57,436 nt of DNA from Candidatus Saccharimonadia bacterium. GTDB taxonomy: Bacteria; Patescibacteriota; Saccharimonadia; UBA4664. The DNA lies in the NCBI GenBank assembly GCA_038245115.1, contig JBBRSS010000006.1:1-57436 (forward strand), written 5' to 3'. Positions within the stretch are counted from its first letter, which is position 1. The number at the start of each line of letters is the position of its first letter. Of the stretch, positions 7,512-20,935 are shown one piece after another. The notes below the pieces were generated by a model. The model saw nothing but the letters and a program-made list of their open reading frames with translations, did no database searches and had not been told where the DNA came from. Both the position numbers and the translations under genes were made by a program.

Positions 7512-8552
7512 ATGGGACTATTTGTTAAGGAAACTGAATTCTTCGGTCTGGATATCGGCTCAACCGCCATCCGGTTGGTCCAACTTCGCCGTGGTGGCGA
7601 CCACCCCGCTTTGGTGGCTTACGGTGCTATACCGGTGCCGGCTAACTTGGCGGCGAGTGATTCGAGCCTAGATCAGGATAAGATGGCGGAGTTGATTCGC
7701 CAGTTGGTGCGAGAGAACCAGATTAGTCTCAAGAATGTGGTGGCGGGTCTATCGGCCACGAAAGTGTACGCGACCGTTATTACCACGCCGAAGCTCGAGA
7801 ACGCCCAGCTGGCCAAGGCGATTCGTTACCAGGCTGAGCAGTATATTCCGATGGCGATTGATCAAGTGAAGTTGGATTGGGCCGTGATAGACCAGAGCAA
7901 GGACGGCAAGCAGCTTGAAGTGTTGCTGGTGGCGGCGCCGAATTCGGCGGTTGATAAGTATGTGAGTATCCTGGAGAAGGCCGGCCTTGAGCCTTTGGGG
8001 CTGGAGCCAACTGCGACGGCTGTGGCACGAGCTTTGATACCCAAGAATAATCTCGCAGTTGTTATTTTGGATTTTGGATCGTTAGACTCGGATATTTCGA
8101 TTGTATGGAATAATGCACCGCGGTTGATTCGGTCCGTTTCGGCTGGCGGGCTGACTTTGGTGCGGTCGGTGGCGCAGAATCTGGGTCTGGATGAAGTGCA
8201 GGCAAATCAATTTACTTATAAGTTTGGGCTTACTCAGTCTAAACTCGAAGGCCAAGTATTTAAGGCTCTCAAACCAACGCTTGATAACCTGGTGGGTGAA
8301 GTTGAGAAATCGGTGAAGTATTTTGTGGGGCGTTATCCCGACGTCAAGATTGAAAAGCTAGTCGTGTCCGGTAGTCCCGCCGCCCTGCCAGAGCTTGGGC
8401 CGTTCTTGGCCAACTCTACTGGCTTACCGGTTGAATTTGGCAATGCCTGGGTGAACGTGTCGTATCCTTCGGGGTTGCAAGATAAGTTGATGGGGCTTTC
8501 CTCGGAATATGCGGCGGCGGTTGGTCTGGCGGGTCGGGGATACATGGAATGA
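7512..8552 (+). CDS. pilM: Type IV pilus assembly protein PilM (actin-like ATPase fold)
   Basis: 346 aa. N-terminal FGLDIGSTAIRLVQL is typical of PilM. It is immediately followed by PilN/PilO-like genes. Confidence 0.85.
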   Translation: MGLFVKETEFFGLDIGSTAIRLVQLRRGGDHPALVAYGAIPVPANLAASDSSLDQDKMAELIRQLVRENQISLKNVVAGLSATKVYATVITTPKLENAQLAKAIRYQAEQYIPMAIDQVKLDWAVIDQSKDGKQLEVLLVAAPNSAVDKYVSILEKAGLEPLGLEPTATAVARALIPKNNLAVVILDFGSLDSDISIVWNNAPRLIRSVSAGGLTLVRSVAQNLGLDEVQANQFTYKFGLTQSKLEGQVFKALKPTLDNLVGEVEKSVKYFVGRYPDVKIEKLVVSGSPAALPELGPFLANSTGLPVEFGNAWVNVSYPSGLQDKLMGLSSEYAAAVGLAGRGYME

Positions 8553-9139
8553 GTATCCTGATAAACCTACTCCCGGATCTGCGTCAGGCAAAACTGTTGG
8601 AAAAACGCCGCCGTCAACTGGTGAGTGGCGTGTCGGTAGTTATTTGGAGCGTCTGCGGGGGTGTGATCGTATTGCTCTCGATTTATTGGGGCGGCCAAGA
8701 GGCTATTATTAAGAATAAGAGCGCGAATATCGTTCGGGACACCAAACAGCTCAGGGAAGTTCCGGGTATTTACGATGCCTTAACAGCTCAGCAGCATTTG
8801 GCTTCATTGCCGAGTCTCTATGCTAAGCGAGTGTATATTTCGAAATTTTTAAGTGCCTACACGGCGTCAAATCCGGCCGATGTAGCGTTAACTACCATGG
8901 CGCTTGATGCTACTAATCTGCTAAAGGTGAGCGGTACGGCAAATTCGTATGCCGCGGTGGCCAAGCTGGCCAGGGCCCTCGAACAGTCGAATTTGACAGT
9001 TGGATCTAATGCTGCGGTGAAAAATATTCCCTACTTTACCAATGTTCATATCGGCGGAGTAAATTCGGGTGCAACTGGGAAAGTAAACTTTACGCTCGAT
9101 GTTGTAGTTGGGCCGGGAGCGGTAACAAATGGCAACTAA
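8549..9139 (+). CDS. pilN: PilN-like pilus assembly protein
   Basis: 196 aa. INLLPDLRQAKLLEKRRRQL followed by a single TM. 4-nt overlap (ATGA) with pilM. Confidence 0.7.
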   Translation: MSILINLLPDLRQAKLLEKRRRQLVSGVSVVIWSVCGGVIVLLSIYWGGQEAIIKNKSANIVRDTKQLREVPGIYDALTAQQHLASLPSLYAKRVYISKFLSAYTASNPADVALTTMALDATNLLKVSGTANSYAAVAKLARALEQSNLTVGSNAAVKNIPYFTNVHIGGVNSGATGKVNFTLDVVVGPGAVTNGN

Positions 9140-9746
9140 GCAAGATAAACTAGCCGGAAACAATTTGTATATCGTGCTGTTATTGGTGACGTTACTGGCT
9201 CTGGGCTCAACGGCCTTGATAGGTAAGGCGCTGGTGAGCAAGATTGTGCGTGATACAAAAGTTGTGACGGCCAAGGATAAGGCCGAAAAACAACTCACTG
9301 AGAATTTGACTACCGCACCAAAGCTAGTGGACGCATATAATGCGATGACTTCCGAGAAGAGTGTACTGGCGGACGCACTTCCGACAAGTTCAGATCTGCC
9401 ATCATTACTGGTGACGTATGAGAATATGGCGGCGCAGGCAGGCATTAAACTGACTAGTGTAAGTACGGTTGCCTACGGAACGCCGGTTGTTCCAGTAAAA
9501 ACTACGTCATCGACAAGCGGCATTGTTACGCCGGCTCCAAAAACCTATACCACCAGTTATAATTTTACGGGCAGTTATGTATCGCTAACTAAATTATTCG
9601 CTGCAGTTGAACTGAACGCTCGTCCGATGCGAATCACGGGCGTGAATTTAAACGGTAGCGGTACGGCATTGAATGGCGATATCACCGTTGAAACATATTT
9701 CCAGGATAAGGCCGAACTACCAATTGGGACGGAGATAATAAAATGA
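9129..9746 (+). CDS. pilO: PilO-like pilus assembly protein
   Basis: 205 aa with an N-terminal TM followed by a coiled region. The call rests on its position after pilN, which it overlaps. Confidence 0.6.
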   Translation: MATKQDKLAGNNLYIVLLLVTLLALGSTALIGKALVSKIVRDTKVVTAKDKAEKQLTENLTTAPKLVDAYNAMTSEKSVLADALPTSSDLPSLLVTYENMAAQAGIKLTSVSTVAYGTPVVPVKTTSSTSGIVTPAPKTYTTSYNFTGSYVSLTKLFAAVELNARPMRITGVNLNGSGTALNGDITVETYFQDKAELPIGTEIIK

Positions 9747-9994
9747 AAAAGAAAGATTTGATATATTTGATAGTCGCTGTGACGATATTCCTTGTAACGG
9801 GATATGTTGGGTATACGCAGTTGATACCAAAGAAGGCTTCGGCTAGCGTAGTCACGGTGGAGGTAGTCGGATCAATCCCGGATCATTTGGATGAGGCCGG
9901 ATTGGCGGCTCTGAGTGACAGAACTAAAGTTCAGGATTTCAATTCGCCGGTAGACTTAACTGGCCTGGGCAACGCAGCAGTATTTGGGCGATAG
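9743..9994 (+). CDS. Small single-pass membrane protein in the pilus operon
   Basis: 83 aa with TM LIYLIVAVTIFLVTGYVGY. 4-nt overlap with the pilO-like gene. Confidence 0.55.
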   Translation: MKKKDLIYLIVAVTIFLVTGYVGYTQLIPKKASASVVTVEVVGSIPDHLDEAGLAALSDRTKVQDFNSPVDLTGLGNAAVFGR

Positions 9995-10023
9995 TCGAAA
10001 ACGGGGAGATGAGGGCATGACAA

Positions 10024-11796
10024 ATGCTATCGGTTGAAAGCCAGCATAGAATAGAGGAATTGATTCTCGAGGGTAAGCTGCTTACGTCCGGGAATTTGGA
10101 GACGGCTAAAGTTGACGCGCTCAAGGCTTCGAAGCCGTTGATTGCCTATATTGCTGAGAAAAATTTGGTGGGAGAGGAAGATCTGACGCGCATCTCCGCT
10201 GAGGCTACAGGTGTGCCATACGCCAACTTACGAACCTTAACCGTGCCTGACGATGTTATGAGGCTGCTACCGAAGGAGACCGCTGAATCTTATATGGCGG
10301 TACCGTTCGGGATGCAGAACGGTCGGTTGGCAGTGGCTATGCTCGACCCGACAAACATTCAGGCCGTGGATTTTTTGGGGCGCAAATTGGGGCGTACACT
10401 GACGGTGTATTTGGCATCGCGCGGGTCGATCGACCATGTGCTAGGGCAGGCACACGCAGATGTTTCGGCTGATTTGGCGGTGGCTATGGATATTGCGAAT
10501 GTCGAAGATCATCCCAAGGTGGCTTTGAAGAACCCCAAAGCAATGCAGAATTTAGTGCAGGATGCGCCAATTACCAGGGCACTGAATGCGATACTGGATT
10601 ACGCAGCTCAGAGCCGCGCTTCGGATATTCACGTGGAGCCGCGCGAGCACGAGCTAAAGATTCGCTATCGTATTGATGGTATTTTGCAAGAAACTATGAC
10701 TTTGCCGAAGAGTATTGAGCCGGCCCTGATATCTCGAATAAAAATTTTGTCCAATCTGCGTATTGATGAACACCGCATCCCTCAGGATGGTCAGTTTCAG
10801 ATTAGCTCCAGCGGCCGGGAGATTGACCTGCGTATTGCTATTTCGCCGGTGGTCTGGGGTGAGCAGGTGGTTATTCGGTTGTTAGATAAGACGGGCACCG
10901 TGTTGACCCTGGAGGCTTTGGGCTTCCGAGGTCGAGCGGCTCGGCTGATTTCGGCGGGTATCCACCGACCGCACGGCATGACGCTGTCGACTGGTCCTAC
11001 CGGTTCGGGTAAGTCGACCACGCTGTACGCGGTTGTCCAGGAGCTTAAGGATGTTTCTATCAACATTGTGACGCTTGAAGACCCGGTGGAGTACAAGATG
11101 GACGGGATTAATCAGATTCAAGTAAATGCGGATGTGGGGCTGACGTTTGCTTCGGGGTTGCGCAGCATTTTGCGCCAAGATCCTAACGTGGTGCTGGTGG
11201 GGGAAATTCGGGACAAAGAGACGGCTGATCTGGCTGTACAGGCCGCACTGACCGGCCATGTGGTGTTGAGTACCATTCACACCAACTCAGCGGCCGGCGT
11301 GTTGCCGCGGTTGCTGGATATGGGGATTGAGCCATTCTTGATTGCCTCAACCGTGAATACTGTTATTGGGCAACGGTTGGTTCGCAAACTTTGCGGCAAG
11401 TGCAAGCAATCTTATGAGTCGAATCCTGCCGAAACAAAATCGCTTAAGACTACCCTAGAGAACGTGCTGCCAAAAACGAATGCCGAGACGGAGAAGGTCA
11501 AGAAGGATGTTGGCTACGATGTGGTTCCGACGGCAGATCAGGATACGTTTAAGCTCTATAAGGCGGTGGGCTGCAGCGAGTGCGTGAAGGGGTATAAGGG
11601 TCGAATAGGTATTTATGAAGTGTTTGCCATGACGCCCGATATGGAGAAGCTACTGCTGTCTCATTCGACGACGAGCGAGGTCCAAGGTCAGGCAGCGAAA
11701 GACGGCATGCTCACAATGAAGCAGGACGGGTATTTCAAGGTCTTGAATGCACTCACGACAATAGAAGAAGTGGCGCGGGTCGCCGCAGATTTCTAA
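10024..11796 (+). CDS. pilB: Type IV pilus extension ATPase PilB (GspE family)
   Basis: 590 aa. Walker A GPTGSGKST, a GspE-type core (LRQDPNVVLVGEIRD) and a C-terminal Cys cluster CGKC...CSEC. Confidence 0.9.
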   Translation: MLSVESQHRIEELILEGKLLTSGNLETAKVDALKASKPLIAYIAEKNLVGEEDLTRISAEATGVPYANLRTLTVPDDVMRLLPKETAESYMAVPFGMQNGRLAVAMLDPTNIQAVDFLGRKLGRTLTVYLASRGSIDHVLGQAHADVSADLAVAMDIANVEDHPKVALKNPKAMQNLVQDAPITRALNAILDYAAQSRASDIHVEPREHELKIRYRIDGILQETMTLPKSIEPALISRIKILSNLRIDEHRIPQDGQFQISSSGREIDLRIAISPVVWGEQVVIRLLDKTGTVLTLEALGFRGRAARLISAGIHRPHGMTLSTGPTGSGKSTTLYAVVQELKDVSINIVTLEDPVEYKMDGINQIQVNADVGLTFASGLRSILRQDPNVVLVGEIRDKETADLAVQAALTGHVVLSTIHTNSAAGVLPRLLDMGIEPFLIASTVNTVIGQRLVRKLCGKCKQSYESNPAETKSLKTTLENVLPKTNAETEKVKKDVGYDVVPTADQDTFKLYKAVGCSECVKGYKGRIGIYEVFAMTPDMEKLLLSHSTTSEVQGQAAKDGMLTMKQDGYFKVLNALTTIEEVARVAADF

Positions 11797-11891
11797 AAAA
11801 ACCGACGGTGTGCATTCTCAAGCTTCTTGTGCTTTAATAGTGATATCAGTAGAGGTGAAAGTTGGAGAGAAGCGCGCTCAAAATCGAAACA

Positions 11892-12932
11892 ATGCTCGAG
11901 CAGGTGAGTCGGGCAGAAGCCTCGGATCTTCACCTGCAAGTTGGACTAGCCCCAATGCTACGGGTGGACGGGGGTTTAGTGCCCATCGAAGACACTCCAA
12001 AATTGGAGCCTTCGGACGTGGAGAAGCTAGTCTTTTCCATCCTGGATGACGATCAGAAAGAGATTTTGTTAAAAGATAAAGAAGTGGATTTTTCCTTTGC
12101 ATTCGGCAATTATGGACGTTTTCGGGTAAATGCCTTTCATGAGCGCGGCAATTTGGCGGCGGCATTTCGGCTGATACCGTCGAAAATTCGGACGCTAGAA
12201 GACTTGGTGATGCCGAAGGTGCTGCAGGAGTTCACCAAGTTCCCGCGCGGCTTGGTGCTGGTGACCGGCCCGACTGGCTCCGGTAAAAGTACGACGCTGG
12301 CGGCGATGGTCGACAAGATCAACTCCGAGCAGAGTAAGCACATTTTGACCATTGAAGACCCGATTGAGTACGCGCACACCTCCAAGAAATCGATCGTGGT
12401 TCAGCGTGAAATTCATTACGATACCTACTCTTTCTCGGCGGCTTTGCGCTCGAGTTTGCGCCAAGATCCGGATGTAGTGCTCATTGGTGAGATGCGAGAT
12501 CTGGAAACTATTGCGGCGGCTGTGACGATTGCTGAAACCGGCCACCTGGTGCTGGCGACGCTGCACACTAACAGCGCGGCACAGTCTATCGACCGTATGG
12601 TGGACGTGTTCCCGCCGCATCAACAGCAGCAGATTCGGGTGCAGCTGGCTGGTATGCTGCAGGGCATTGTGAGTCAGCGATTGGTGCCGGGCATCGGCGG
12701 TGGTCGGGTGGTGGCGGCCGAGATTCTGGTGGTTACTGGCGCTGTACGTAACATTATTCGCGAGGGCAAGACTCACCAGCTGGACGCAGTTATTCAGACC
12801 GGGGCTGAGTATGGGATGCAGAGTATGGACCGTCAGCTGATTCAGCTGGTGCAAGAGGGCAAGATTACCTACGATGAAGCCAAGAATTTTGCGGTAGATC
12901 TGCAAGAGATGGAAAGGTTGATGCGCGGGTAG
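11892..12932 (+). CDS. pilT: Twitching-motility retraction ATPase PilT
   Basis: ATG 11892 gives MLEQVSRAEASDLHLQVG. Walker A GPTGSGKST, LRQDPDVVLIGEMRD, and a size of ~346 aa. The ORF track starts at TTG 11862. Confidence 0.9.
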   Translation: MLEQVSRAEASDLHLQVGLAPMLRVDGGLVPIEDTPKLEPSDVEKLVFSILDDDQKEILLKDKEVDFSFAFGNYGRFRVNAFHERGNLAAAFRLIPSKIRTLEDLVMPKVLQEFTKFPRGLVLVTGPTGSGKSTTLAAMVDKINSEQSKHILTIEDPIEYAHTSKKSIVVQREIHYDTYSFSAALRSSLRQDPDVVLIGEMRDLETIAAAVTIAETGHLVLATLHTNSAAQSIDRMVDVFPPHQQQQIRVQLAGMLQGIVSQRLVPGIGGGRVVAAEILVVTGAVRNIIREGKTHQLDAVIQTGAEYGMQSMDRQLIQLVQEGKITYDEAKNFAVDLQEMERLMRG

Positions 12933-12935
12933 CTT

Positions 12936-14162
12936 ATGCAAACTTTTAACTATACTGCCCACAAAACTGACAACGGCGAGCTGATTAAGGCTGAGGTACA
13001 GGCCGAGAGTGAGCGGGCGGCAGCGAAGTTGCTGATGGCGCAAGGCTTGTTCCCGATTGATATTTCATCCAAGGCGGCCGAGAGTTTCTTGGAAAAAAAC
13101 GGCATCGGATCCAGAGTGGGCGCCAAAGACCGGGTGATATTCACGCGCCAGCTCTCAACATTGATTAATGCCGGGCTACCGTTGACCCAGTCGCTCCATA
13201 CGGTTTCAGACCAGATTACCAACAAGACTCTCAATCATATTGTCGGTGAGGTTGTGACGAGCGTGGAGGCCGGAACAAGCCTGAGCCAATCGTTTGCCAA
13301 GTATCCTAAGGTCTTTAGTGATATATACGTGAGTTTGGTCGCGGCCGGGGAAACATCCGGTTCGCTCGATAAAGCGCTGGAGCGCATTGCTAACCAGCAA
13401 GAAAAAGACGCAGCTATCGTGGGCAAGATTCGCAGCGCGCTGATTTACCCGGTGATTGTGTTGGGCGTGATTATGCTGGTTCTGGTGTTTATGCTTACGA
13501 CGGTGCTGCCTCAGGTAGGGGGACTGTACCACGATCTGCATAAGCCGCTGCCGTTCCTGACTCAGATACTAATGGTTATTTCGACCTTCATTATGAATTT
13601 TTGGTATCTATGTATCCTTGGTGCCATTGGTTTGGTATATTCGCTCCGAAATTATGTTAAGACTGAAAACGGCCGGTCTATCGCGGATCAGTTTAAGCTG
13701 AATGTGCCGATATTTGGTCGGATTTACCGAAAAGTATACATGGCGCGGTTCTCGCGCACCCTTGGCACAATGTTGCAGAGTGGTATCCCAATGCTCGAGG
13801 CGCTGCGGATCGTGAAGGACGCTATTGATAACGTGCATGTGGAGAAAGTTATCGCAAAGTCGATGGAAGAGGTGAAGGGGGGCAAGGCGCTGTCGACTTC
13901 ACTCGAGGGCGAGGCGGCCTTCACGACGCTGGTGCCGCAGATGATTAAGATTGGTGAACAGTCGGGCGCGATCGACTCGATGCTCGACCGGGTGGCGACC
14001 TACTATGAGGACGAAGTAGACGAAGAGGTGAAGAACATCTCGACTACTATAGAGCCGATAATGATGGTGGTATTGGGCGTAACGGTGGGCGGCGTGATAG
14101 CGGCCATTCTGATGCCGGTGTACTCGTTGGTGGGTAGCGGTAGTATTGATAATCTGAAATAA
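12936..14162 (+). CDS. pilC: Type IV pilus platform protein PilC (GspF family)
   Basis: 408 aa, polytopic, with the duplicated GspF-type domain pattern. Sits between pilT and the pilin gene. Confidence 0.9.
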   Translation: MQTFNYTAHKTDNGELIKAEVQAESERAAAKLLMAQGLFPIDISSKAAESFLEKNGIGSRVGAKDRVIFTRQLSTLINAGLPLTQSLHTVSDQITNKTLNHIVGEVVTSVEAGTSLSQSFAKYPKVFSDIYVSLVAAGETSGSLDKALERIANQQEKDAAIVGKIRSALIYPVIVLGVIMLVLVFMLTTVLPQVGGLYHDLHKPLPFLTQILMVISTFIMNFWYLCILGAIGLVYSLRNYVKTENGRSIADQFKLNVPIFGRIYRKVYMARFSRTLGTMLQSGIPMLEALRIVKDAIDNVHVEKVIAKSMEEVKGGKALSTSLEGEAAFTTLVPQMIKIGEQSGAIDSMLDRVATYYEDEVDEEVKNISTTIEPIMMVVLGVTVGGVIAAILMPVYSLVGSGSIDNLK

Positions 14163-14234: not shown

Positions 14235-14732
14235 TTGAAAGGTGAGTTTAAGGTGAGTAACCTCCTCAAGAAAGAAAAGGGATTTACCCTTATAGAAATA
14301 GTTCTCGTCTTGGCCATCGCGGGGCTTCTGCTCGTGATTGTGTTCTTGGCAGTATCCGGAGCTCAGAAGAGCCGTCGCGACACGCAGCGCAAGAATGATC
14401 TGAGCACGGTTGCAGCTCAGCTCGAAAGCTTTGCTTCGAACAACAATGGTAAGTATCCGGAAGATGCTACGCTACCTACGGCGACGACATTTGCAGCCTT
14501 TGCTACGGCATATAAGCTTAATTTGGTTACAGGCAATTTGAAAGATGCTCTAAGCGGTAATGTTTATACGTTTGCCGACGGGGCAACTCCGACCGTTCCG
14601 TCTGCGACCACATCGGCCGGGGTAAGCTATGTCCTCGGTAGTGACTGTGACGGAGTGGCGTCCGGAACTCGGGTGTATGCCGTCTACATCGGCCTCGAGC
14701 AAGGTGCGAAGAATTGCCGAACCAACAAGTAA
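14235..14732 (+). CDS. pilA: Major type IV pilin (prepilin)
   Basis: Class III leader and N-methylation motif KEKG|FTLIEIVLVLAIAGLLL. C-terminal Cys pair (GSDCDG...AKNCRTNK). The likely true start is GTG 14253, after the GAAAGGTGAG RBS. Confidence 0.9.
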   Translation: MKGEFKVSNLLKKEKGFTLIEIVLVLAIAGLLLVIVFLAVSGAQKSRRDTQRKNDLSTVAAQLESFASNNNGKYPEDATLPTATTFAAFATAYKLNLVTGNLKDALSGNVYTFADGATPTVPSATTSAGVSYVLGSDCDGVASGTRVYAVYIGLEQGAKNCRTNK

Positions 14733-14750
14733 ATCCGGTTTGACCGAAAA

Positions 14751-14775
14751 AAGAGGCCCTCGGGCCTCTTTTTTT
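14751..14775 (+). terminator. Rho-independent terminator/attenuator after the pilin gene
   Basis: 8-bp stem aagaggcc/ggcctctt with loop ctcg, followed by a T-run. Confidence 0.75.
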
Positions 14776-14790
14776 GTGTATAATCTGGTT

Positions 14791-15606
14791 ATGGTTAATG
14801 ACGCACAAATGGTGGTGGCAGTAATGTACGGGGTGATCGGAGGGCTGTTTGGCCTAATGTTCGGCTCGGCGATTAACGCGATGGTGTGGCGACTGAAGGT
14901 GGGCCGCAGTTGGGTGAAGGGGCGGAGTGTTTGCCCGGATTGCGACCATACGCTGGCGGCTAAGGATTTGGTGCCGGTGCTGTCGTGGATGGTGCTGCGT
15001 GGCAAGTGCCGATATTGTCGGGCGCCTATTCAGGACACTCCGGTGGCTGAGCTGGTGACAGCAGGGGTGTTTGCGGTGTCGGTGGCAGTTATTATGCCTA
15101 CCGCAACAGTTGGGTACGTTAAGCTGGGCTTTTGGTTGGTCTTGGTGGTGCTAATGCTGGTGCTCGCCGTATACGATGCGCGTTGGTTGGAACTGCCAGA
15201 TAGCATAATGAAGCCGCTGGTGGCGGTGGCTTTGGTCTACGCGGCTACGATGGCCTGGTTGACCCACTCACCGCAGGTCCTTTTGGGATCGCTGGAGGCA
15301 GCCGTGGTGGCCGGTGGCGCCTTTGCTTTGCTGGTGGCCGTGTCGAAGGGCCGGGCGATGGGCGGGGGAGACGTGAAGCTGGCTTTTGCTATGGGGCTTA
15401 TTTTGGGGGTGCAAGGGACAGCCGTGGGAATGTTGGTGGCGTTTAATACGGCAGCAGTCGTGGGAGTAGTACTTATTGCCACGAAGAAGAAGGGGTTTAA
15501 GAATCAGATTCCCTTTGGGCCGTATTTAGTGGGGGGTACAGTTGTGGCGTTTTTATTCGCCAGGTCAATTGCGGGCTGGTATTTGCGACTAAATGGCTTG
15601 CAGTAA
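14791..15606 (+). CDS. pilD: Prepilin peptidase / N-methyltransferase PilD (A24 family)
   Basis: ATG 14791. Cys motif CPDCDH...CRYCRAPI, active-site GGGDVKL, polytopic. The upstream ORF extension to 14629 overlaps the pilin gene and the terminator. Confidence 0.9.
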   Translation: MVNDAQMVVAVMYGVIGGLFGLMFGSAINAMVWRLKVGRSWVKGRSVCPDCDHTLAAKDLVPVLSWMVLRGKCRYCRAPIQDTPVAELVTAGVFAVSVAVIMPTATVGYVKLGFWLVLVVLMLVLAVYDARWLELPDSIMKPLVAVALVYAATMAWLTHSPQVLLGSLEAAVVAGGAFALLVAVSKGRAMGGGDVKLAFAMGLILGVQGTAVGMLVAFNTAAVVGVVLIATKKKGFKNQIPFGPYLVGGTVVAFLFARSIAGWYLRLNGLQ

Positions 15607-15642
15607 GCGGGCGAAGTTGATTGTGATATATTGAAAGTACTT

Positions 15643-16317
15643 ATGTCTAGAAAACATACATTGAGGAGTCAGTCGGGGTTCACCTTGGTTGAAATAATAT
15701 TGGTACTGGCTATTAGCTCCACGATGCTAACGATTGCTTTTGTGGGGCAGCGTCAGCTGCGAAGCAGAGCGCAGTTCGATGCGGCAATTGAGAAGGTGGT
15801 GTCCAGTATCTCGAACGCCCAAAATCAGGCGACGGCGGGCGTGAACACGCAAGGATCGGGGGATGGGCTGGCGGCCGGTATGTGCCCGACGGGACCATCG
15901 CCAACAGTTGCGAATCCGGTTGTGTTCGCGGGTACGACCTGGACTATAGATGGGAAGGCTAGCGCTCCATCTGTTGCGACAATTTCAATTGACTATTACA
16001 AGGCGATACCGGGGCTGAGCCCGGCTTCCGCTTGCATCTTTGATAGTCAGTCAATCGGGTTGCCTAGTGATGTTTCGCTAGTTGGTGCCGCAGCAAGACG
16101 GGTGGCCGGGCTGGTATTTATGAGGACGAATAATGGATCGCTTGATGTGTGCCCATTGCAGTTGCCGACGGTACCGGCTTTCCAGGCACAATCGAGGCAG
16201 GCATTCGTCGGGAGTGCTTGCCCGAATGCAGCGCTCACTTTTACTCTGCAAGACACTGAAGGCCATATTTCGGATATTCAGGTAGATCCCAGCGGCTTAG
16301 CGAAGAGGTTGAATTAG
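15643..16317 (+). CDS. Minor pilin / pseudopilin
   Basis: ATG 15643 gives MSRKHTLRSQSG|FTLVEIILVLAISS, a prepilin leader plus hydrophobic helix. Confidence 0.8.
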   Translation: MSRKHTLRSQSGFTLVEIILVLAISSTMLTIAFVGQRQLRSRAQFDAAIEKVVSSISNAQNQATAGVNTQGSGDGLAAGMCPTGPSPTVANPVVFAGTTWTIDGKASAPSVATISIDYYKAIPGLSPASACIFDSQSIGLPSDVSLVGAAARRVAGLVFMRTNNGSLDVCPLQLPTVPAFQAQSRQAFVGSACPNAALTFTLQDTEGHISDIQVDPSGLAKRLN

Positions 16318-16318
16318 C

Positions 16319-16897
16319 GTGAGTAGATTGAGTGATACTTTGAAAGCAGTTATGGCGCCAGAGGGTGGGTTTACGTTGATTGAGCTGTTGGTGGCGATGT
16401 CAATATTTAGTTTTATGCTCCTGATAGTATCGAGCGGTTTTATAAATATCGTGCATATTCATGATCAAGCGGTGGCGGCCAATACAGTTCAGGATAATGC
16501 GCGCACAACAATGGATGAGCTGGTGAGAGGGGTTCGAACTTCGAACGCGGTCTTGCCGAGTGCGGCGAATACTTTGTGCCTGTCGAATTCGATTAACGGG
16601 ATCTATACGCTGTATTACGTCACTGGCGGAGTTATGAGGCGGGCCGATTCGCCAACTTGCACGGCGCCAGGTTTGAACGTTCAAGATATTACCTCGAGCA
16701 TAGTCAACGTGGTTGATTTTACGGTGGTGGTAGATGCAACCAGCAGGCCCAAGCAGCAGGTGAATTTATCGATAACGGTGACCCCGGTGAACGGCACCGC
16801 CCAGTTAGTATCGGGCAAGTGGGTCTGTGGCCCCAACAACTCGGATCGGACATTTTGCTCAATAATAACGCTTAATTCTGGGGCGGTATCACGATGA
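16319..16897 (+). CDS. Minor pilin (PilW/PilV-like)
   Basis: PEGG|FTLIELLVAMSIFSFMLL prepilin motif. 192 aa. Confidence 0.8.
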   Translation: MSRLSDTLKAVMAPEGGFTLIELLVAMSIFSFMLLIVSSGFINIVHIHDQAVAANTVQDNARTTMDELVRGVRTSNAVLPSAANTLCLSNSINGIYTLYYVTGGVMRRADSPTCTAPGLNVQDITSSIVNVVDFTVVVDATSRPKQQVNLSITVTPVNGTAQLVSGKWVCGPNNSDRTFCSIITLNSGAVSR

Positions 16898-17892
16898 ATA
16901 ATCAACGCGGATTTGTGTCACTTTTTACAGCTATTATGCTGAGTCTCTTGTTGCTGGTAATTACCGTTAGTATGATTTCGCTCGAGGTGCTGCAGCTGCG
17001 CAAGTCGGAGGATTCGGAGCAGACGATGCGGGCATACTACGCGGCCGAGGCGGGGATTGAGGATGCGACGGCCAAGGTGCTCAATGGTACCTGGACGCCA
17101 GCAATGGGCGATCGAACTTGTGCGACTTCCGGCGCGAGGAATCCAACCTACGACACGACAGGGGCGGCGGGCTGGACTTGTCAGCAAATTATTTTTTCGG
17201 GAAATCCGACCGGTAATGTGGAGGCTGATGCGGCCAAAACTATCGATCCCGGAACAGGGGTTGCTTATAACAGGGTCGTGATCGAATGGAATCAGGCTGG
17301 TGGGTTAAACCCGACGGTGCCGGCCGGCGGGATGCCGAATGCTGCTGCGTATGCGGCAGGTGGTTATCCTCCGGTAATGGAGGCGGCGATTGTGCAGTAT
17401 CCGAACGGGCTGTTTAATTCTCTAAACCCCGCTTTGCAGTTGACTAACGCCGTGATTGTGCCGCGCGGGGCGGCTGGGGGGGTAGTAGACTATAGCCAGA
17501 CTCCTACAGGTCAGCAATTTAGTGGCAATTGCAGGGCTACTACTGCTCCAAGGGCTATCGTATCCGGCCTCAACAGCGTATATAACTGTTACGCCGAGAT
17601 AACCAATTTGAACCCGGCAAACCATTATCTGTTTCGGTTAAGGCCGCGGTATGGGGCTACTTCGTATAAGATGACATTTTTCTCTGGGGCATCAATTGTG
17701 AGCGTACCGGATGGTACGGCAACGATTGATGTGACCGCTATGGCGGGGCAGACCTCGCGCCGGGTTATTTCCAAAGTGCCAATGACTGGCGGGGCGGCCA
17801 GCGGGTTGAATTACGTTATGTATTCGGATAATGATGTCTGCAAGAACTTCGATGTTATCGGCGGCTTGCCTGGGCCGGGTTGTCCTTACTAG
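16894..17892 (+). CDS. PilX-like minor pilin/pilus-associated protein
   Basis: N-terminus QRGFVSLFTAIMLSLLLLVITVSMISLEV...YYAAEAGIEDA resembles the PilX N-terminal domain. 332 aa. 4-nt overlap with the previous gene. Confidence 0.7.
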   Translation: MNNQRGFVSLFTAIMLSLLLLVITVSMISLEVLQLRKSEDSEQTMRAYYAAEAGIEDATAKVLNGTWTPAMGDRTCATSGARNPTYDTTGAAGWTCQQIIFSGNPTGNVEADAAKTIDPGTGVAYNRVVIEWNQAGGLNPTVPAGGMPNAAAYAAGGYPPVMEAAIVQYPNGLFNSLNPALQLTNAVIVPRGAAGGVVDYSQTPTGQQFSGNCRATTAPRAIVSGLNSVYNCYAEITNLNPANHYLFRLRPRYGATSYKMTFFSGASIVSVPDGTATIDVTAMAGQTSRRVISKVPMTGGAASGLNYVMYSDNDVCKNFDVIGGLPGPGCPY

Positions 17893-18405
17893 ATGCGCGG
17901 CAAATATATATCATTTGGAGAACGAGGCGATACCCTTATTGAGGTGACGATGGCTTTGGCCATTTTGTCTTCGGTGTTGTTGTCTTCGACCGTGATTGCT
18001 ACCCGGGCATCAACGCTGGGTCAGGTGGCGGCTGAAAGGACAAGATTGGCAGGTGAGGCCCAGGAACATGTTGAGTCTATGCATGGTTTTCGGGATAACC
18101 ATACCTGGGCAGAATTCTTGGATGGGCAGACCTCGCCATCGTATCAAGGCGTGTTGAGTGCCCGGAGCTCGATTGGGTGCAGAGTTACCTCTCCGTGTAT
18201 GCACATGGGGCTTAACCCGGCTTCGCACTTACCGTTGGGTGGCGGAGTGGCAGGTTCGGTTCCGGCTTCGTATATCGAGATCGCGATCGATCCAGATCCG
18301 GCGTCGACCCCGCCCCAGTTTGTGGACGTAACAGTCAGCTATGGGTTCGATAACCGTGGCGGGGGGGGCGCAAAGTACCGGGCATATCAAGACGCGGTTT
18401 ACTAA
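17893..18405 (+). CDS. Pilin-like protein, probably the 5' part of a frameshift-split modular pilin
   Basis: GERG|DTLIEVTMALAILSSVLL prepilin-type leader. The ORF stops 37 nt after a G8 run (18361-18368). Confidence 0.7.
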   Translation: MRGKYISFGERGDTLIEVTMALAILSSVLLSSTVIATRASTLGQVAAERTRLAGEAQEHVESMHGFRDNHTWAEFLDGQTSPSYQGVLSARSSIGCRVTSPCMHMGLNPASHLPLGGGVAGSVPASYIEIAIDPDPASTPPQFVDVTVSYGFDNRGGGGAKYRAYQDAVY

Positions 18406-19063
18406 TTTAGGGTTTGCAGTAGCTACCCTGCCACCACCACCGCCCCCGCCTCCGCCTCCGCCCCCGCCTCCGCCTCCGCCTCCGCCACCTGCCTGTACTA
18501 ATGGCCGAAGCGATATCGTATTGGTATTGGATGCATCGAGTAGTATGAATTTACCTTGGGATACGACAACTCGGGCGAATAAGCTCAGGAGCGTGGCGGC
18601 ACAGTTCGTGGATCAGGTTACGATTTCGGTGCTTGGTAATCACGGAGCCGCGCTCCAGTTTGAGCAGGTAGTTACGCTGTTGTCGCCGATGACTTCAAAT
18701 CAGGCTGCGCTCAAGGCAGCAATTGGAAGTTATACAACTGGGTTTAACACTCAGATCACTAAGGCTTTACAGGCGGCAAACGGGCTATTCGGGGGGCGTC
18801 CGCTAGCGCCGAAGGTTGTAGTGCTGGTATCTGATGGTGAGCCTAGCGCGGGCGATACGGTTGCGGCGGTGAAGAACCAGGCAAGCATTATGGCTGCGGC
18901 GGGCGTGAGAATATATACGGTTATGATCGGGGACCCAACACCCAACGCCTTAGATGTAATGAGCAACATACCGGCCAATGGCGGCACGTATGCCAACGCG
19001 CTAAGTGAGGCTCAGCTAGATGCGATGATGGCAAATATTGCGGCCATTGAGGCTTGTGACTAG
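18341..19063 (+). CDS. PolyPro-linker + von Willebrand factor A (vWA) domain protein, probably the 3' part of the split modular pilin
   Basis: 20 consecutive Pro codons, then DIVLVLDASSSMN (MIDAS DxSxS) and VVVLVSDGEPS. No signal peptide or TM of its own. It is in the +1 frame relative to ORF 17893-18405 and overlaps it by 65 nt. Confidence 0.75.
   Translation: MGSITVAGGAQSTGHIKTRFTNLGFAVATLPPPPPPPPPPPPPPPPPPPPACTNGRSDIVLVLDASSSMNLPWDTTTRANKLRSVAAQFVDQVTISVLGNHGAALQFEQVVTLLSPMTSNQAALKAAIGSYTTGFNTQITKALQAANGLFGGRPLAPKVVVLVSDGEPSAGDTVAAVKNQASIMAAAGVRIYTVMIGDPTPNALDVMSNIPANGGTYANALSEAQLDAMMANIAAIEACD
18361..18368 (+). repeat. G8 homopolymer at the junction of two overlapping reading frames
   Basis: The sequence ggc gggggggg cg was read directly. 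G7 or G10 would fuse ORF 17893 to ORF 18341. Confidence 0.9.
18431..18490 (+). repeat. Imperfect (CCN)20 repeat encoding 20 prolines
   Basis: cca cca cca ccg ccc ccg cct ccg cct ccg ccc ccg cct ccg cct ccg cct ccg cca cct. Confidence 0.95.
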
Positions 19064-20007
19064 TCGGGCTGGCGGGAAGATGGTTGGGACCTGTGGCTAT
19101 GGAATTTTTCGTGGACAGCTTTGAGCTGCGGGTCGGTGATGTGGGTGTAAATTTGCGTGGTGGAAATGTTGGCGTGGCCGAGTAGGCCTTGGACGCTGCG
19201 GATGTCGGCGCCATTGATGAGCAGATCGGTGGCAAAGCTGTGGCGTAGGGTGTGGGGGGTGACGTCTTTGGTGATTCCGGCCGCTATGGCATAACGTTTC
19301 ACCAGCCGCTGGACGCTGCGAACCGTGAGGCGGGTGTACATGCCGCCCTCGGCGCTATCTTGGGAGCCTGAGTAATGGATAAAGAGGGGCTTACCATCGT
19401 CGTGGCGGCTTTTGAGGTACAGATCGATCCAGTCGGCGGCGGTGGGGGAGATGAAGATGGGGCGGTCTTTTTGGCCCTTGCCGCGGACCATGAATTCGCG
19501 CCGGTCGAGGTTGATGTGGGTGGTATCGAGGTTGACCAGCTCGGACACGCGCAGGCCGCCGGAGAACAGTAGCTCGATGATGGCGCGGTCGCGCAGGCCG
19601 ATGGGGTTGGTGGTGTCGATGGCATCGAGAAGGCGCTCGACTTCTTCGGTTTCTAGGAAGGTTACTTGCGGGCGGACGGTTTTGGCGAGTTCGATTTTGG
19701 CGCTGTCGAGGGCGGCGATGTCGCGCTTGGCCAGGTACTTGAGGAAACTTCTTAGAGCTATGAGGTGGTAATTTTGGGTGGTTTTGGTGAGTTCGTTGCC
19801 GGAAACGTCTTTGATACGGTTGAGGTGTAGGCGCCATTGGCGGACCATTTCGGCGTTGAGCTTGGCGATGTCGCAGTCGTCGGTAAATTCGACCAGCCGC
19901 TGGAGGTAGTGGTCGTAGTTGCTGATGGTCTTGGGCGAGCGGTTCTGTTCGATCTCCAGGTGCTCCAGGAAGTCGGTGACGAGCTCGGATAGGTGTAGTT
20001 CGGCCAT
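19060..20007 (-). CDS. Tyrosine site-specific recombinase (XerC/XerD-like)
   Basis: 315 aa. N-terminal SAM-like core-binding region (FLEHLEIEQNRSPKTISNY). C-terminal HTLRHSFATDLL...GLLGHANISTTQIYTH (R-H-R-Y family motifs). Confidence 0.9.
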   Translation of the reverse strand: MAELHLSELVTDFLEHLEIEQNRSPKTISNYDHYLQRLVEFTDDCDIAKLNAEMVRQWRLHLNRIKDVSGNELTKTTQNYHLIALRSFLKYLAKRDIAALDSAKIELAKTVRPQVTFLETEEVERLLDAIDTTNPIGLRDRAIIELLFSGGLRVSELVNLDTTHINLDRREFMVRGKGQKDRPIFISPTAADWIDLYLKSRHDDGKPLFIHYSGSQDSAEGGMYTRLTVRSVQRLVKRYAIAAGITKDVTPHTLRHSFATDLLINGADIRSVQGLLGHANISTTQIYTHITDPQLKAVHEKFHSHRSQPSSRQPD

Positions 20008-20027: not shown

Positions 20028-20456
20028 TTATGCTTCTATGCTACCACGTCGCACAATCTGGGAGGGTAATTTTGTGGTGGTGCGCAGGAGTAGGCGCTGA
20101 ATGTCGGTGGGGGTTTTGTCGTTGAGAAAGCCTTTGCTTTTACCGATTTCGACGGCGTGTTGTTGGCGCAATAATTCTTCTTGTAAGCAGATCGAGCCGT
20201 GGGCTGAAATGGTGTAGTGGAGGCGTTCTTTGCCCGATTTACCTGCTGGGTGGCGGCCCGAGAGCTCAATGAGGGCTTCGTCGTGGAGGTGATCGATTAA
20301 TGCGTAGAGCCGGCTGTTGGTAAGGCTAATGCTGCCGAGTGAGCAGTTATATACGGCGCCCTTGATGGCGTAACCATGTAGCTCGTTGCCGGATAGCGCG
20401 AGTAGTACGTAGAATGCTTGAACTGAAATTGGTGGCGGCGGTGAATCTGGGTACAT
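20028..20456 (-). CDS. PadR-family winged-helix transcriptional regulator
   Basis: FYVLLALSGNELHGYAIKGAV...LTNSRLYALIDHLHDEALIE matches the PadR wHTH pattern. 142 aa. Confidence 0.7.
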   Translation of the reverse strand: MYPDSPPPPISVQAFYVLLALSGNELHGYAIKGAVYNCSLGSISLTNSRLYALIDHLHDEALIELSGRHPAGKSGKERLHYTISAHGSICLQEELLRQQHAVEIGKSKGFLNDKTPTDIQRLLLRTTTKLPSQIVRRGSIEA

Positions 20457-20489
20457 ACGGGCGCATCCGGGTAATGTAGTGATCGGATT

Positions 20490-20533
20490 TTAGTCTCTTT
20501 TGAAGACTAATTTTAAAAAGACTAATTTCGGGG
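20490..20533. promoter_or_regulatory. 43-bp conserved module, copy 1: palindrome TTAGTCT-N7-AGACTAA plus a third AGACTAA half-site
   Basis: ttagtctcttttgaagactaattttaaaaagactaatttcgggg, 34 bp upstream of the PadR start. Near-identical copy at 41682-41725. Confidence 0.6.
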
Positions 20534-20551
20534 AAGAGTTAAGCCGTGGGC

Positions 20552-20878
20552 TTACTCTTGGAGCGCTTGGAAAATCCAAACTAGACCGATCAGGATTAAC
20601 CCGACCATCATGTAAAGAATCCATTTTTTCTTCAAGATTATTGGAATGGACAGCATACAAATGGTCCCAATAACGATGAAGGGAAGACCGGATAACATGA
20701 TCAATACAAATATGTTTGTTCCGTCGACTGAGCCCATACCCACGCTGAAGGAGTTGAATATATATGCCAATATACCGATTACGATAAGGAATATCCCCAA
20801 AAGTCCTAAAGTTATGGAGAGTCGTAGCCGAGACCCTGCCTGTTTAGTTAGCTTATGGTCCGAGGGGGTAAATATCAT
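20552..20878 (-). CDS. Small polytopic membrane protein
   Basis: 108 aa with 3 strongly hydrophobic segments. AT-richer codon usage. Hairpin aagagttaagcc/ggcttactctt lies just downstream (20533-20563). Confidence 0.6.
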   Translation of the reverse strand: MIFTPSDHKLTKQAGSRLRLSITLGLLGIFLIVIGILAYIFNSFSVGMGSVDGTNIFVLIMLSGLPFIVIGTICMLSIPIILKKKWILYMMVGLILIGLVWIFQALQE

Positions 20879-20935
20879 TTGGTATCCTTATGGTTATTTA
20901 AGCATGCTTTTCGCCTTAAGTTAAGCGAATATTGC

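What the first reader, a model, noticed from the sequence alone, without database searches (positions are those of the whole stretch)
18331..18440. G8 tract sits exactly at the overlap of a pilin-like ORF and a signal-less polyPro-vWA ORF, suggesting a modular vWA tip pilin under frameshift control
Seen: ORF 17893-18405 starts with a prepilin-type leader (GERG|DTLIEV plus a hydrophobic helix). It terminates 37 nt after a run of eight G (18361-18368). ORF 18341-19063 is in the +1 frame and overlaps it by 65 nt. It encodes 20 prolines and a vWA domain with an intact MIDAS (DASSS), but it has no signal peptide or TM helix. By codon arithmetic, G7 or G10 (or a +1 ribosomal shift) reads ...FDNRGGG-AQSTGHIKTRFTNLGFAVATL-P20-vWA as a single ~387-aa protein. 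Established: Streptococcus sanguinis PilB is a bimodular type IV pilin carrying a grafted vWA adhesion module. Poly-G slippage phase-varies the Neisseria pilus adhesin gene pilC. Inference: the assembled state is the OFF or truncated form of a phase-variable pilus-tip adhesin, or it is a homopolymer assembly error.
Basis: partly seen in the sequence, partly recalled or inferred. Interest (0 to 1): 0.8.

Follow-up and report, generated by a model that had tools for sequence, protein, structure and literature searches.

The report
Frameshifted pilus-tip adhesin gene (pilin–vWA)
In a soil Saccharimonadia (TM7) genome, one extra G in a run of Gs splits a gene that relatives keep whole, a pilus subunit fused to a sticky vWA domain; this looks like an ordinary slippage mutation, and nothing shows it is an evolved on/off switch.

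Summary
G8 lies at 18361-18368. ORF1 (17893-18405) has a prepilin leader. ORF2 (18341-19063) is in the +1 frame and encodes 20 prolines plus a vWA domain with DxSxS. G7 or G10 gives one 389/390-aa protein.

The fused reading is the ancestral gene. About 20 clusters of relatives encode pilin+linker+vWA as a single ORF. Syntenic loci place it after pilB-pilT-pilC-pilA-pilD and the minor pilins, and before xer, as in the window. The break is not at the domain boundary. It falls inside the pilin module, before its last conserved beta-strand (GHIKTRFTNL), which is read only in the +1 frame. The G8 allele therefore gives a pilin lacking that strand and leaves the vWA untranslated or unsecreted.

The tract comes from a conserved Gly-Gly-Gly motif. 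In 18 homologous genes the G run at this site is 2-6, and none is frameshifted. No evolved contingency tract and no programmed frameshift is supported.

A second assembly of run SRR19962014 is identical and also has G8, so an assembler artefact is unlikely. Only this one sample carries the organism, so tract heterogeneity could not be tested.

Best reading: a recent slipped-strand +1G null/OFF allele of a PilV/GspI-class modular pilin, reversible in principle. It is a new member of a known kind.

The parts
7512..14162 (+). Type IV pilus machinery genes upstream: pilM (7512-8552), two small membrane proteins in the pilN and pilO positions (8549-9139, 9129-9746), pilB ATPase (10024-11796), pilT ATPase (11862-12932), pilC platform (12936-14162)
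   Evidence: NCBIfam PilM TIGR01175 at 1.9e-50. Pfam T2SSE at 7e-128 and 1.3e-49. T2SSF was called on the identical Logan contig. The pilN/pilO assignment rests on position only.
14235..17892 (+). Pilin genes and peptidase: putative major pilin (14235-14732), prepilin peptidase PilD (about 14677-15606), GspH-like minor pilin (15631-16317), GspJ-like minor pilin (16319-16897), PilX/GspK-position protein (16894-17892)
   Evidence: N_methyl and TIGR02532 hits and Peptidase_A24. The same order is seen in the syntenic loci L002-L006.
17893..17928 (+). Prepilin leader MRGKYISFGERG, ending in Gly-1. Predicted PilD cleavage is G12|D13, with Glu at +5 (E17).
   Evidence: Read from the sequence. TIGR02532 scores 16.4 bits against a cut-off of 16.3. 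G12, D13, T14 and E17 are invariant in 39 family members.
17929..18360 (+). Pilin module in frame 1: alpha-1 helix (residues about 11-69) and beta-strands 1-4 (to residue 152), up to Arg155-Gly156
   Evidence: AF2 pLDDT 90.9 for the module. 36 of 39 family members hit the PilV model TIGR02523 and 22 of 39 hit GspI.
18361..18368 (+). G8 homopolymer, the site of the +1 nt frame break. It encodes the conserved Gly-Gly-Gly loop. G7 (GGC GGG GGG GCG) restores the ancestral frame.
   Evidence: The homologous site in 18 genes has G runs of 2-6.
18370..18405 (+). Out-of-frame tail of ORF1 (AKYRAYQDAVY, then TAA). It has no counterpart in homologs.
18374..18403 (+). Last beta-strand of the pilin module (STGHIKTRFT, fusion residues 161-170). 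It is readable only in the +1 (ORF2) frame.
   Evidence: It aligns with the conserved xNxIxTRLxNL of all homologs, including stand-alone pilins. AF2 models a strand at 161-170 with pLDDT about 90 or higher.
18431..18490 (+). Pro20 linker, partly encoded by a (CCGCCT)x7.8 tandem repeat at 18440-18486
   Evidence: AF2 pLDDT is below 50 for residues 175-203. Orthologs have variable Pro/Thr-rich linkers at this position.
18512..19063 (+). vWA module (fusion residues 207-389) with the DxSxS of the MIDAS at 18530-18544. Conserved Cys201 and the near-terminal Cys388 flank the module. Stop codon at 19061-19063.
   Evidence: Pfam VWA 2.9e-18. AF2 pLDDT is mostly above 90. Foldseek finds vWA structures down to 1.6e-12. 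PDB profile hits include the fimbrial and pilus adhesins Mfa5 and SpaC.
19060..20007 (-). Convergent Xer-type tyrosine recombinase. It is a conserved downstream neighbour in all related loci, used here as a synteny marker; it probably has no functional link to the pilin gene.
   Evidence: Pfam Phage_integrase 3e-44. Synteny.

Best explanation
Positions 17893-19063 are one gene, the last gene of a type IV pilus operon in a Saccharimonadia (TM7/Patescibacteria) genome. Intact, it encodes a ~389-aa bimodular minor pilin. That protein has a prepilin leader (cleaved G|DTLIEV), a PilV/GspI-class pilin module, a rigid Pro20 spacer, and a vWA domain with a MIDAS motif. Such a protein would be incorporated through its pilin module into the minor-pilin complex at the pilus tip and would present the vWA module as an adhesin.

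In this genome a conserved Gly-Gly-Gly loop happens to be spelled GGC GGG GGG G. Slipped-strand mispairing has added one G (G7 to G8). In the resulting allele, translation leaves the frame before the last beta-strand of the pilin module and stops 12 codons later. The vWA module is left without a leader, a Shine-Dalgarno-like sequence or a secretion signal. This is a null or OFF allele.

The downstream frame is still fully open and its motifs are intact, so the event is recent. A G7/G8 tract is intrinsically unstable, so the change is reversible in principle. The tract is an accident of codon choice, not a conserved switch.

Shown: gene identity, the position of the break, the absence of the tract and of the frameshift in relatives, and agreement of two assemblies. 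Inferred: tip location, adhesin role, slippage as the cause, and loss of function.
For: 1. Single-ORF homologs cover 95-100% of the G7 fusion (P0001-P0006, 36-47% identity). About 20 clusters at 50% identity contain full-length pilin-vWA proteins of 362-416 aa.

2. Synteny is conserved: pilB-pilT-pilC-pilin-pilD-minor pilins-PilX-like-[pilin-vWA]-xer(-)-Wzy_C-BacA in L003-L006, and partly in L001 and L002. The window has the same order.

3. The alignment across the break is conserved: window YGFDNRGGG|AQSTGHIKTRFTNL against YGFLNAGGGPMNEGHIKLRFTNL and others. The same strand is present in 38 stand-alone pilins.

4. AF2 gives a helix at 11-69 and five strands, with strand 5 (161-170) after the break. 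PolyPro is disordered and the vWA module is confident.

5. The frame switch maps to 18362-18366.

6. At the homologous site, 18 genes have G runs of 2-6 and none is split.

7. The Logan assembly of SRR19962014 is identical over window 12894-19150, including G8.

8. No other split genes were seen. Five other G7/C7 runs lie in ORFs that stay open, and the one other overlapping gene pair proved to be two distinct genes. The contig therefore does not look error-prone at homopolymers.

9. No Shine-Dalgarno-like sequence precedes the ORF2 ATG or GTG. The next ATG (18545) lies after the DxSxS.
Against: - No read-level data were available. The two assemblies probably derive from the same reads, so a systematic homopolymer miscall or a mixed G7/G8 population is not excluded.
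- The vWA frame is perfectly preserved. This fits a very recent mutation, but it fits equally well a reversible switch kept by selection, or low-level recoding.
- In this operon the frameshifted gene is the only PilV/GspI-class pilin, whereas L003 has an additional stand-alone copy. A true null might therefore cripple pilus assembly, which would be costly for an episymbiont. That argues for some residual or switchable expression.
Confidence: 0.6

Rival explanations
1. This is a functional phase-variable (contingency) locus. The population switches reversibly between G7 (ON: pili tipped with vWA) and G8 (OFF) by slipped-strand mispairing, and selection uses this to vary adhesion or to escape hosts or phages that recognise the tip. 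The sampled consensus happens to be OFF.
For: - The tract is long enough for elevated indel rates. Reversible frameshifts at homopolymeric tracts are reported as phase variation in the Mycobacterium tuberculosis complex (listed: 10.1101/717272 for glpK, PMC10334774). From my own knowledge the glpK tract is 7 C.
- The downstream 233 codons are open and the motifs are intact.
- The gene encodes a surface adhesin, the classic target of such switches. Neisseria pilC poly-G is the precedent (established knowledge).
- The gene is the only PilV-class pilin in the operon, so permanent loss would be costly.
Against: - The tract is not conserved. G runs at the site are 2-6 in 18 homologs, and no other homolog is split.
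- G/C runs are not enriched in the window.
- The Logan contig runs through the tract without a break, which is weak evidence against an abundant second allele.
- Only one sample carries the organism.
- No report of SSR phase variation in Saccharibacteria was found.
Confidence: 0.2
2. This is a sequencing or assembly artefact. The organism has G7 and an intact gene, and the extra G is a homopolymer miscall carried into the consensus.
For: - The break is exactly one base in the longest G run of the contig.
- The rest of the gene is flawless.
- The two assemblies probably share the same reads, so they are not independent of a platform bias.
Against: - Two assemblers give an identical 6257-bp sequence with G8.
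- Five other G7/C7 runs lie in ORFs that remain open, and no other split gene was seen in 57 kb.
- Exact agreement between the two assemblies suggests accurate reads. This is an inference; the platform was not checked.
Confidence: 0.13
3. This is recoding. The full-length protein is made from the G8 template, either by a +1 ribosomal slip of tRNA-Gly on GGG_GGG_G or by RNA polymerase slippage on the G run. ORF1 would then be the main product and pilin-vWA a minor one.
For: A +1 slip on any GGG codon re-pairs perfectly and gives exactly the G7 protein (codon arithmetic). The downstream frame is intact.
Against: - There is no stop or obvious stimulatory element next to the run.
- The frameshift is absent from every ortholog, so it is not a conserved programmed event.
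- Spontaneous slippage would give about 1% or less (established knowledge).
Confidence: 0.05
4. These are two genuine separate genes: a short pilin and a cytoplasmic vWA protein.
For: Gene callers call both pieces: P0015 (151 aa) and P0159 (172 aa).
Against: - ORF1 lacks the conserved last strand, which sits in the ORF2 frame.
- ORF2 has no Shine-Dalgarno-like sequence, leader or hydrophobic segment.
- The called 172-aa piece starts after the DxSxS.
- All relatives are fused.
Confidence: 0.02

Closest known systems
Streptococcus sanguinis PilB, a bimodular type IV minor pilin with a vWA module (Raynaud et al. 2021, PMC8179133)
   Same: - Both have an N-terminal pilin module followed by a C-terminal vWA module with a MIDAS motif in one polypeptide.
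- Both are encoded in a type IV pilus operon of a monoderm-type machinery.
- PilB is predicted to sit at the pilus tip and act as an adhesin.
- That paper also shows that modular pilins are widespread: more than 1200 proteins and 264 architectures, including candidate-phyla bacteria.
   Different: - No detectable homology between the pilin modules (Foldseek 7ba2 E 0.7). The window's module belongs to a Saccharimonadia PilV/GspI-class family with an invariant Asp at +1.
- The linker is a 20-Pro rod, whereas PilB has a short loop.
- A conserved Cys pair brackets the vWA module.
- The fusion is probably independent.
- In this genome the gene is frameshifted.
Neisseria pilC poly-G phase variation and other homopolymer contingency loci
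   Same: A G run inside the coding region of a pilus-associated adhesin gene, whose length decides the reading frame.
   Different: - In Neisseria the tract is a conserved feature near the 5' end of the gene, and its length is demonstrably polymorphic (established knowledge).
- Here the tract is in the middle of the pilin fold and arises from a Gly-Gly-Gly motif.
- It is absent from all 18 homologs examined.
- No polymorphism has been observed.
Mycobacterium tuberculosis complex homopolymer frameshifts such as glpK (10.1101/717272; PMC10334774)
   Same: A short, unremarkable homopolymer in an otherwise ordinary gene gains one base, giving a reversible null allele. By my own recollection of these papers the glpK change is 7 C to 8 C.
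   Different: In M. tuberculosis the reversibility and the adaptive value were shown with thousands of genomes and with experiments. Here there is a single consensus sequence.
Pseudomonas aeruginosa / Myxococcus PilY1 (a vWA-bearing tip adhesin held by the PilVWX/FimU minor pilins) and TM7x PilX1/PilX2 (PMC11623550)
   Same: - The functional logic is the same: an adhesion module displayed on the core minor-pilin tip complex.
- In the Saccharibacterium TM7x, minor pilins with extra C-terminal modules (beta-jelly-roll, beta-propeller) are proposed tip adhesins, and PilX2 is needed for host binding.
   Different: - PilY1 is not a pilin. In the window the vWA is covalently grafted onto the PilV/GspI-class pilin itself.
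- The TM7x paper mentions no vWA pilin (zero occurrences of 'vWA' or 'von Willebrand').

Membership tests
Type IV pilin / class III signal-peptide protein | Short charged leader ending in Gly, then a ~20-residue hydrophobic segment with Glu at +5 | tested here: met
   The leader is MRGKYISFGERG|DTLIEVTMALAILSSVLLSSTVIA, with E17 at +5. TIGR02532 scores 16.4 bits against a cut-off of 16.3. Pfam N_methyl scores only 15.0 against a cut-off of 21.2. The +1 residue is Asp, which is unusual but invariant in the family.
Type IV pilin / class III signal-peptide protein | Lollipop fold: a long N-terminal alpha-helix packed on an antiparallel beta-sheet | tested here: inconclusive
   AF2 predicts a helix at 11-69 plus five strands with pLDDT 90.9, which fits the fold. 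Foldseek against the PDB gives no significant match: best E 0.05 to phage coat proteins, and pilins 7ba2 and 6qvf at E 0.7-0.9.
Type IV pilin / class III signal-peptide protein | Encoded alongside a prepilin peptidase and the pilus assembly machinery | tested here: met
   PilM, PilB, PilT, PilC, PilD and three other pilin genes lie immediately upstream on the same strand.
Type IV pilin / class III signal-peptide protein | Cleaved by PilD and incorporated into pili | not testable with these tools
   Needs biochemistry or proteomics.
PilV/GspI class of core minor pilins | Sequence similarity to the PilV/GspI models, and the operon position between the GspH-like and GspJ-like genes | tested here: inconclusive
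   36 of 39 family members hit TIGR02523 PilV (best E 1.6e-7) and 22 of 39 hit GspI, but all are below the curated cut-offs. The window protein itself scores E 0.069. Most relatives sit in the canonical position. The window copy sits after the PilX-like gene.
Modular pilin with a vWA module (PilB-type architecture) | Pilin module and vWA module in one polypeptide | tested here: not met
   As assembled (G8), the two modules are in different frames. The feature is met only in the G7/G10 reading and in all orthologs. The gene is therefore a disrupted member.
Modular pilin with a vWA module (PilB-type architecture) | vWA fold with MIDAS residues | tested here: met
   Pfam VWA 2.9e-18. Foldseek finds vWA structures at 1e-12 to 1e-9. 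DxSxS is present as D213-A-S215-S-S217. The later MIDAS Thr and Asp were not mapped individually; candidate residues (NTQ, SDG) were seen by eye in the alignment. Metal binding was not tested.
Modular pilin with a vWA module (PilB-type architecture) | Homology to S. sanguinis PilB | tested here: not met
   PilB does not appear among the shown (best 60) sequence-profile hits in the PDB, and Foldseek gives only E 0.7 for the pilin module. The architecture is analogous, but this is not the same family.
Simple-sequence-repeat contingency (phase-variable) locus | A repeat tract whose length sets the reading frame | tested here: met
   G8 is out of frame. G7 and G10 are in frame.
Simple-sequence-repeat contingency (phase-variable) locus | The tract is conserved or recurrent in orthologs or paralogs, with frames differing between strains | tested here: not met
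   G runs at the site are 2-6 in 18 homologous genes, and none is frameshifted.
Simple-sequence-repeat contingency (phase-variable) locus | Length polymorphism within a population | not testable with these tools
The second assembly also shows G8.
Programmed ribosomal frameshift | A slippery site plus stimulator, with the frameshift conserved among orthologs | tested here: not met
   Orthologs are in frame. No adjacent stop or structure was noticed.

The most novel reading that the evidence does not exclude
The G7/G8 tract acts as a working ON/OFF switch for the vWA tip adhesin, which is also the only PilV-class core minor pilin of this operon, in an episymbiotic Patescibacterium. That would be the first contingency locus described in this superphylum. 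It would let a population toggle host attachment or piliation, for example to detach from a dying host or to evade phages that bind the pilus tip.
Probability: 0.15. Interest if true: 0.6.

Novelty: new member of a known kind. Interest (0 to 1): 0.3.

Why it matters
Type IV pili are how Saccharibacteria and other ultrasmall episymbionts find and hold their bacterial hosts, and the tip adhesins are largely unknown. This locus, together with about 20 related clusters, shows that soil Saccharimonadia graft a vWA adhesion domain directly onto a PilV/GspI-class core minor pilin through a proline-rich spacer. In diderm bacteria the separate protein PilY1 plays a comparable role. That gives a concrete candidate for host-binding studies.

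The frameshift matters mainly for annotation. The two called fragments (151 aa and 172 aa) should be merged and flagged as one disrupted gene. It would become biologically interesting only if reads show a mixed tract length.

Tried and rejected
- **Same-species search, protein look-ups.** Exact look-ups of ORF1, ORF2 and the G7 and G10 fusions were not in the collection. Only the neighbouring PilX-like protein was, from one Logan contig.
- **Same-species search, metagenomes.** A scan with the fusion as a single query found no relative.
- **Same-species search, flanking genes.** Exact look-ups of Xer, PilT and PilC found nothing, or only the same Logan contig.
- **vWA-only protein search.** It returned only the window's own fragment, so it gave no evidence of split genes elsewhere.
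- **P0013.** This stand-alone 243-aa vWA hit looked like a possible second split gene. It lies in an unrelated, non-pilus context and was rejected.
- **P0121 and P0127.** These short hits start at profile positions 113 and 130. They begin with Val (no Met start) and read in frame across the Gly-Gly-Gly site, so they look like contig-edge partials; their contigs were not checked.
- **Foldseek of the pilin module alone.** No significant PDB match.
- **Other frameshifts in the window as a sign of an error-prone assembly.** The overlapping pair 47273-47911 / 47890-48492 is two distinct genes, an adenylate kinase and a cytidylyltransferase.
- **Promoter and terminator scan.** Counts did not exceed the shuffled expectation, and nothing relevant lay near the junction.
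- **Literature.** No paper links Saccharibacteria or Patescibacteria with homopolymer phase variation, and SRR19962014 is not cited in the library.
Full report
**1. Observation**

The window is a complete 57,436-bp contig with 52.9% G+C.
- Positions 18361-18368 are eight G flanked by C.
- ORF1 (17893-18405, 170 aa) begins MRGKYISFGERGDTLIEVTMALAILSS... and stops 37 nt after the run.
- ORF2 (18341-19063, 240 aa) is in the +1 frame and overlaps ORF1 by 65 nt. It encodes exactly 20 consecutive prolines and a vWA domain (Pfam PF00092, E 2.9e-18) with DASSS.
- Removing one G or adding two gives one ORF of 389 or 390 aa. G9 does not.

The run itself is not statistically remarkable. One G/C run of 8 or more is observed, against 1.7-4 expected under Markov or shuffle models.

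**2. Context**

The two ORFs close a type IV pilus operon on the + strand:
- pilM (7512)
- two small membrane proteins in the pilN and pilO positions
- pilB (10024), pilT (11862) and pilC (12936)
- a probable major pilin (14235)
- the prepilin peptidase
- a GspH-like minor pilin (15631) and a GspJ-like minor pilin (16319)
- a PilX/GspK-position protein (16894)

A Xer-type recombinase converges on the 3' end, and an O-antigen-ligase-like (Wzy_C) gene follows further downstream; a 264-aa ORF at 24231-25025 sits where L003 has BacA but was not scanned. Relatives of the pilin module are all from Candidatus Saccharimonadia / Saccharibacteria MAGs, mostly from soil. The contig is therefore assigned to that class.

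**3. The two ORFs are one gene**

- A search with the G7 fusion found single proteins of 362-416 aa covering 95-100% of it at 36-47% identity (P0001-P0006, P0010).
- An exhaustive profile search found about 20 clusters at 50% identity of such full-length pilin-vWA proteins, plus 596- and 603-aa forms.
- In L003-L006 the 398-aa ortholog occupies exactly the window's position: pilB-pilT-pilC-pilin-pilD-minor pilins-PilX-like-[pilin-vWA]-xer(-)-Wzy_C-BacA.
- L001 and L002 carry two tandem copies.
- tblastn of the fusion against all 34 fetched loci shows the two halves in different frames only in the window and in L021, which is the same sample. The switch maps to 18362-18366.

**4. Where the break falls**

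The break is not at the domain boundary. Alignments A1 and A2 show a conserved segment, Y-G-F-x-x-x-G-G-G-x(3-4)-[GN]-H-I-K-T-R-L-T-N-L, that straddles the tract. The part after Gly-Gly-Gly is encoded in the ORF2 frame (window: AQSTGHIKTRFTNL). It is present even in the 38 stand-alone pilins of the family that have no vWA.

AlphaFold2 models the module with mean pLDDT 90.9: a helix at 11-69 and five strands, the fifth (161-170) being this segment. The frameshift point, residues 156-158, lies in the loop before it.

In the full-length model, residues 175-203 (polyPro) are disordered and residues 207-389 form a confident vWA fold. Foldseek and profile searches match that fold to BatB, PTMP1, integrin I domains, and the pilus and fimbrial adhesins SpaC and Mfa5.

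The G8 allele therefore encodes a pilin module that lacks its last strand and ends in 11 unrelated residues. ORF2 has no Shine-Dalgarno-like sequence before its ATG or GTG, no leader and no hydrophobic segment. The next ATG lies after the DxSxS. That ATG is where the gene caller placed the 172-aa fragment P0159. The caller's version of ORF1 is the 151-aa P0015.

**5. What kind of pilin**

- The leader ends in Gly12 and Glu is at +5.
- TIGR02532 is just above its cut-off (16.4 against 16.3 bits). Pfam N_methyl is below its cut-off.
- Across 39 family members, 36 hit the PilV model TIGR02523 (best E 1.6e-7) and 22 hit GspI, all below the curated cut-offs.
- JGI names several members PilV.
- In most Saccharimonadia loci the stand-alone gene sits between the GspH-like and GspJ-like genes, which is the canonical PilV position.

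I therefore read the module as the PilV/GspI-class core minor pilin. Foldseek of the module alone found nothing significant in the PDB, so structural membership stays inconclusive.

In the window the vWA-bearing copy is the only member of this class in the operon. L003 has an additional stand-alone copy.

**6. Is the frameshift a designed switch?**

- At the homologous Gly-Gly-Gly site, 18 distinct genes use GGC GGC GGC, GGT GGA GGC, GGG GGC GGA and similar spellings. The longest G run is 2-6 (3: six genes; 6: four; 5: four; 2: three; 4: one). None is 7 or longer and none is out of frame. The intact form of the window's gene would have G7 (GGC GGG GGG GCG), the extreme of this distribution.
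- No conserved tract, no recurrent frameshift and no conserved recoding signal exists.
- G/C runs are not enriched in the window.

This argues against an evolved contingency locus or a programmed frameshift. It does not argue against simple, mechanistically reversible slippage of the kind reported for homopolymeric tracts in the Mycobacterium tuberculosis complex (papers listed).

**7. Error or real?**

- A Logan contig assembled independently from run SRR19962014 (6612 bp) is identical to window 12894-19150 and also has G8.
- Five other G7/C7 runs in the window lie inside ORFs that stay open. No other split gene was seen, and the one suspicious overlapping pair is two different genes.

An assembler artefact is therefore unlikely. 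A platform-level miscall or a minority allele cannot be excluded, because both assemblies probably use the same reads. No other sample in the collections carries this organism.

**8. Mechanism proposed**

*Shown:* one ancestral gene, broken by +1 nt in a G run inside the pilin fold.

*Inferred:*
- Slipped-strand mispairing changed G7 to G8.
- The product is non-functional for vWA display and probably compromised as a pilin.
- The event is recent or reversible, because 233 downstream codons remain open with conserved motifs.
- When intact, the protein enters the tip complex through its pilin module, and the Pro20 segment projects the vWA/MIDAS module beyond the other minor pilins as an adhesin. 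A polyproline-II rod of this length would be about 6 nm.
- Cys201 and Cys388, conserved on either side of the vWA in fused homologs, may form a disulfide clamp.

**9. Comparison with known systems**

- The architecture is that of modular pilins as defined for S. sanguinis PilB (PMC8179133). The pilin modules are not detectably homologous and the linker differs, so this is an independent instance of a known design.
- In Saccharibacteria, minor pilins with other C-terminal modules are already proposed as tip adhesins (PMC11623550). A vWA version is not mentioned there.
- The frameshift resembles homopolymer phase variation (Neisseria pilC, the M. tuberculosis complex). It fails the conservation criterion, and the polymorphism criterion is untested.

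**10. Verdict**

- Best explanation (0.6): a genuine slippage-derived null/OFF allele of a PilV-class pilin-vWA gene, at an incidental tract.
- Rivals: functional phase variation (0.2), sequencing error (0.13), recoding (0.05), two genes (0.02).
- Novelty: a new member of a known kind.
- Interest: 0.3.

Noticed in passing
window 17893-17950; alignment A2: The whole pilin family has an invariant Asp at position +1 of the predicted prepilin cleavage site (R-G|D-T-L-I-E-V), where type IV pilins usually have Phe or another hydrophobic residue. This implies an unusual N-terminus, and possibly no N-methyl-Phe, for this PilV-class pilin in Saccharimonadia.
   Followed up: partly
window 15631-17892 compared with L003 5115-7944: The window's operon has no stand-alone PilV/GspI-class pilin between the GspH-like and GspJ-like genes, whereas the syntenic L003 has one (202 aa, P0047). 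The frameshifted pilin-vWA gene is therefore the only member of that class in this operon. The rest of the genome was not available.
   Followed up: partly
L001 1010-3448; L002 2095-4482 and 5535-6098: Related loci carry two tandem pilin-vWA paralogs. L002 has in addition a third pilin-module gene beyond the xer gene. This suggests diversification of tip adhesins by duplication.
   Followed up: no
P0007 (324 aa), P0009 (335 aa); L008 2980-4180; P0110 and P0140 (596 and 603 aa): The same pilin module is fused in other genomes to a different, Cys-rich C-terminal module with no Pfam match. The ~600-aa forms match the pilin-vWA profile in two stretches. L008 shows two overlapping ORFs after the module, which might be another split or a spurious ORF.
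   Followed up: no
window 18440-18486: The Pro20 linker is partly encoded by a (CCGCCT)x7.8 tandem repeat. This is a second slippage-prone sequence in the same gene. It would change linker length in frame. Orthologous linkers vary widely in length and composition.
   Followed up: partly
window 2631-4937 and 5567-7453: Two large proteins (768 and 628 aa) with an N-terminal hydrophobic segment or signal and no Pfam or NCBIfam match lie just upstream of pilM. Their C-terminal ~60 residues are nearly identical (…NKI[AS]FRRLGP.N…VTLSPQIYLNPPKFFDSSVDG…GEKQPL[YF]). Both contain a G7 run (4431, 5706).
   Followed up: no
window 20028-22180 (minus strand): Between xer and the Wzy_C gene the window has three genes that syntenic L003 lacks: a PadR-family regulator, a small membrane protein, and a secreted 414-aa cutinase-domain protein (PF01083, E 2.3e-23) with a Pro/Thr-rich linker. 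This is an unexpected enzyme for an episymbiont and could be an acquired island.
   Followed up: no
window 19060-19063: The stop codons of the vWA gene (TAG, + strand) and of the convergent xer gene overlap in the palindrome CTAG, so there is no intergenic space or terminator between the two convergent genes.
   Followed up: no
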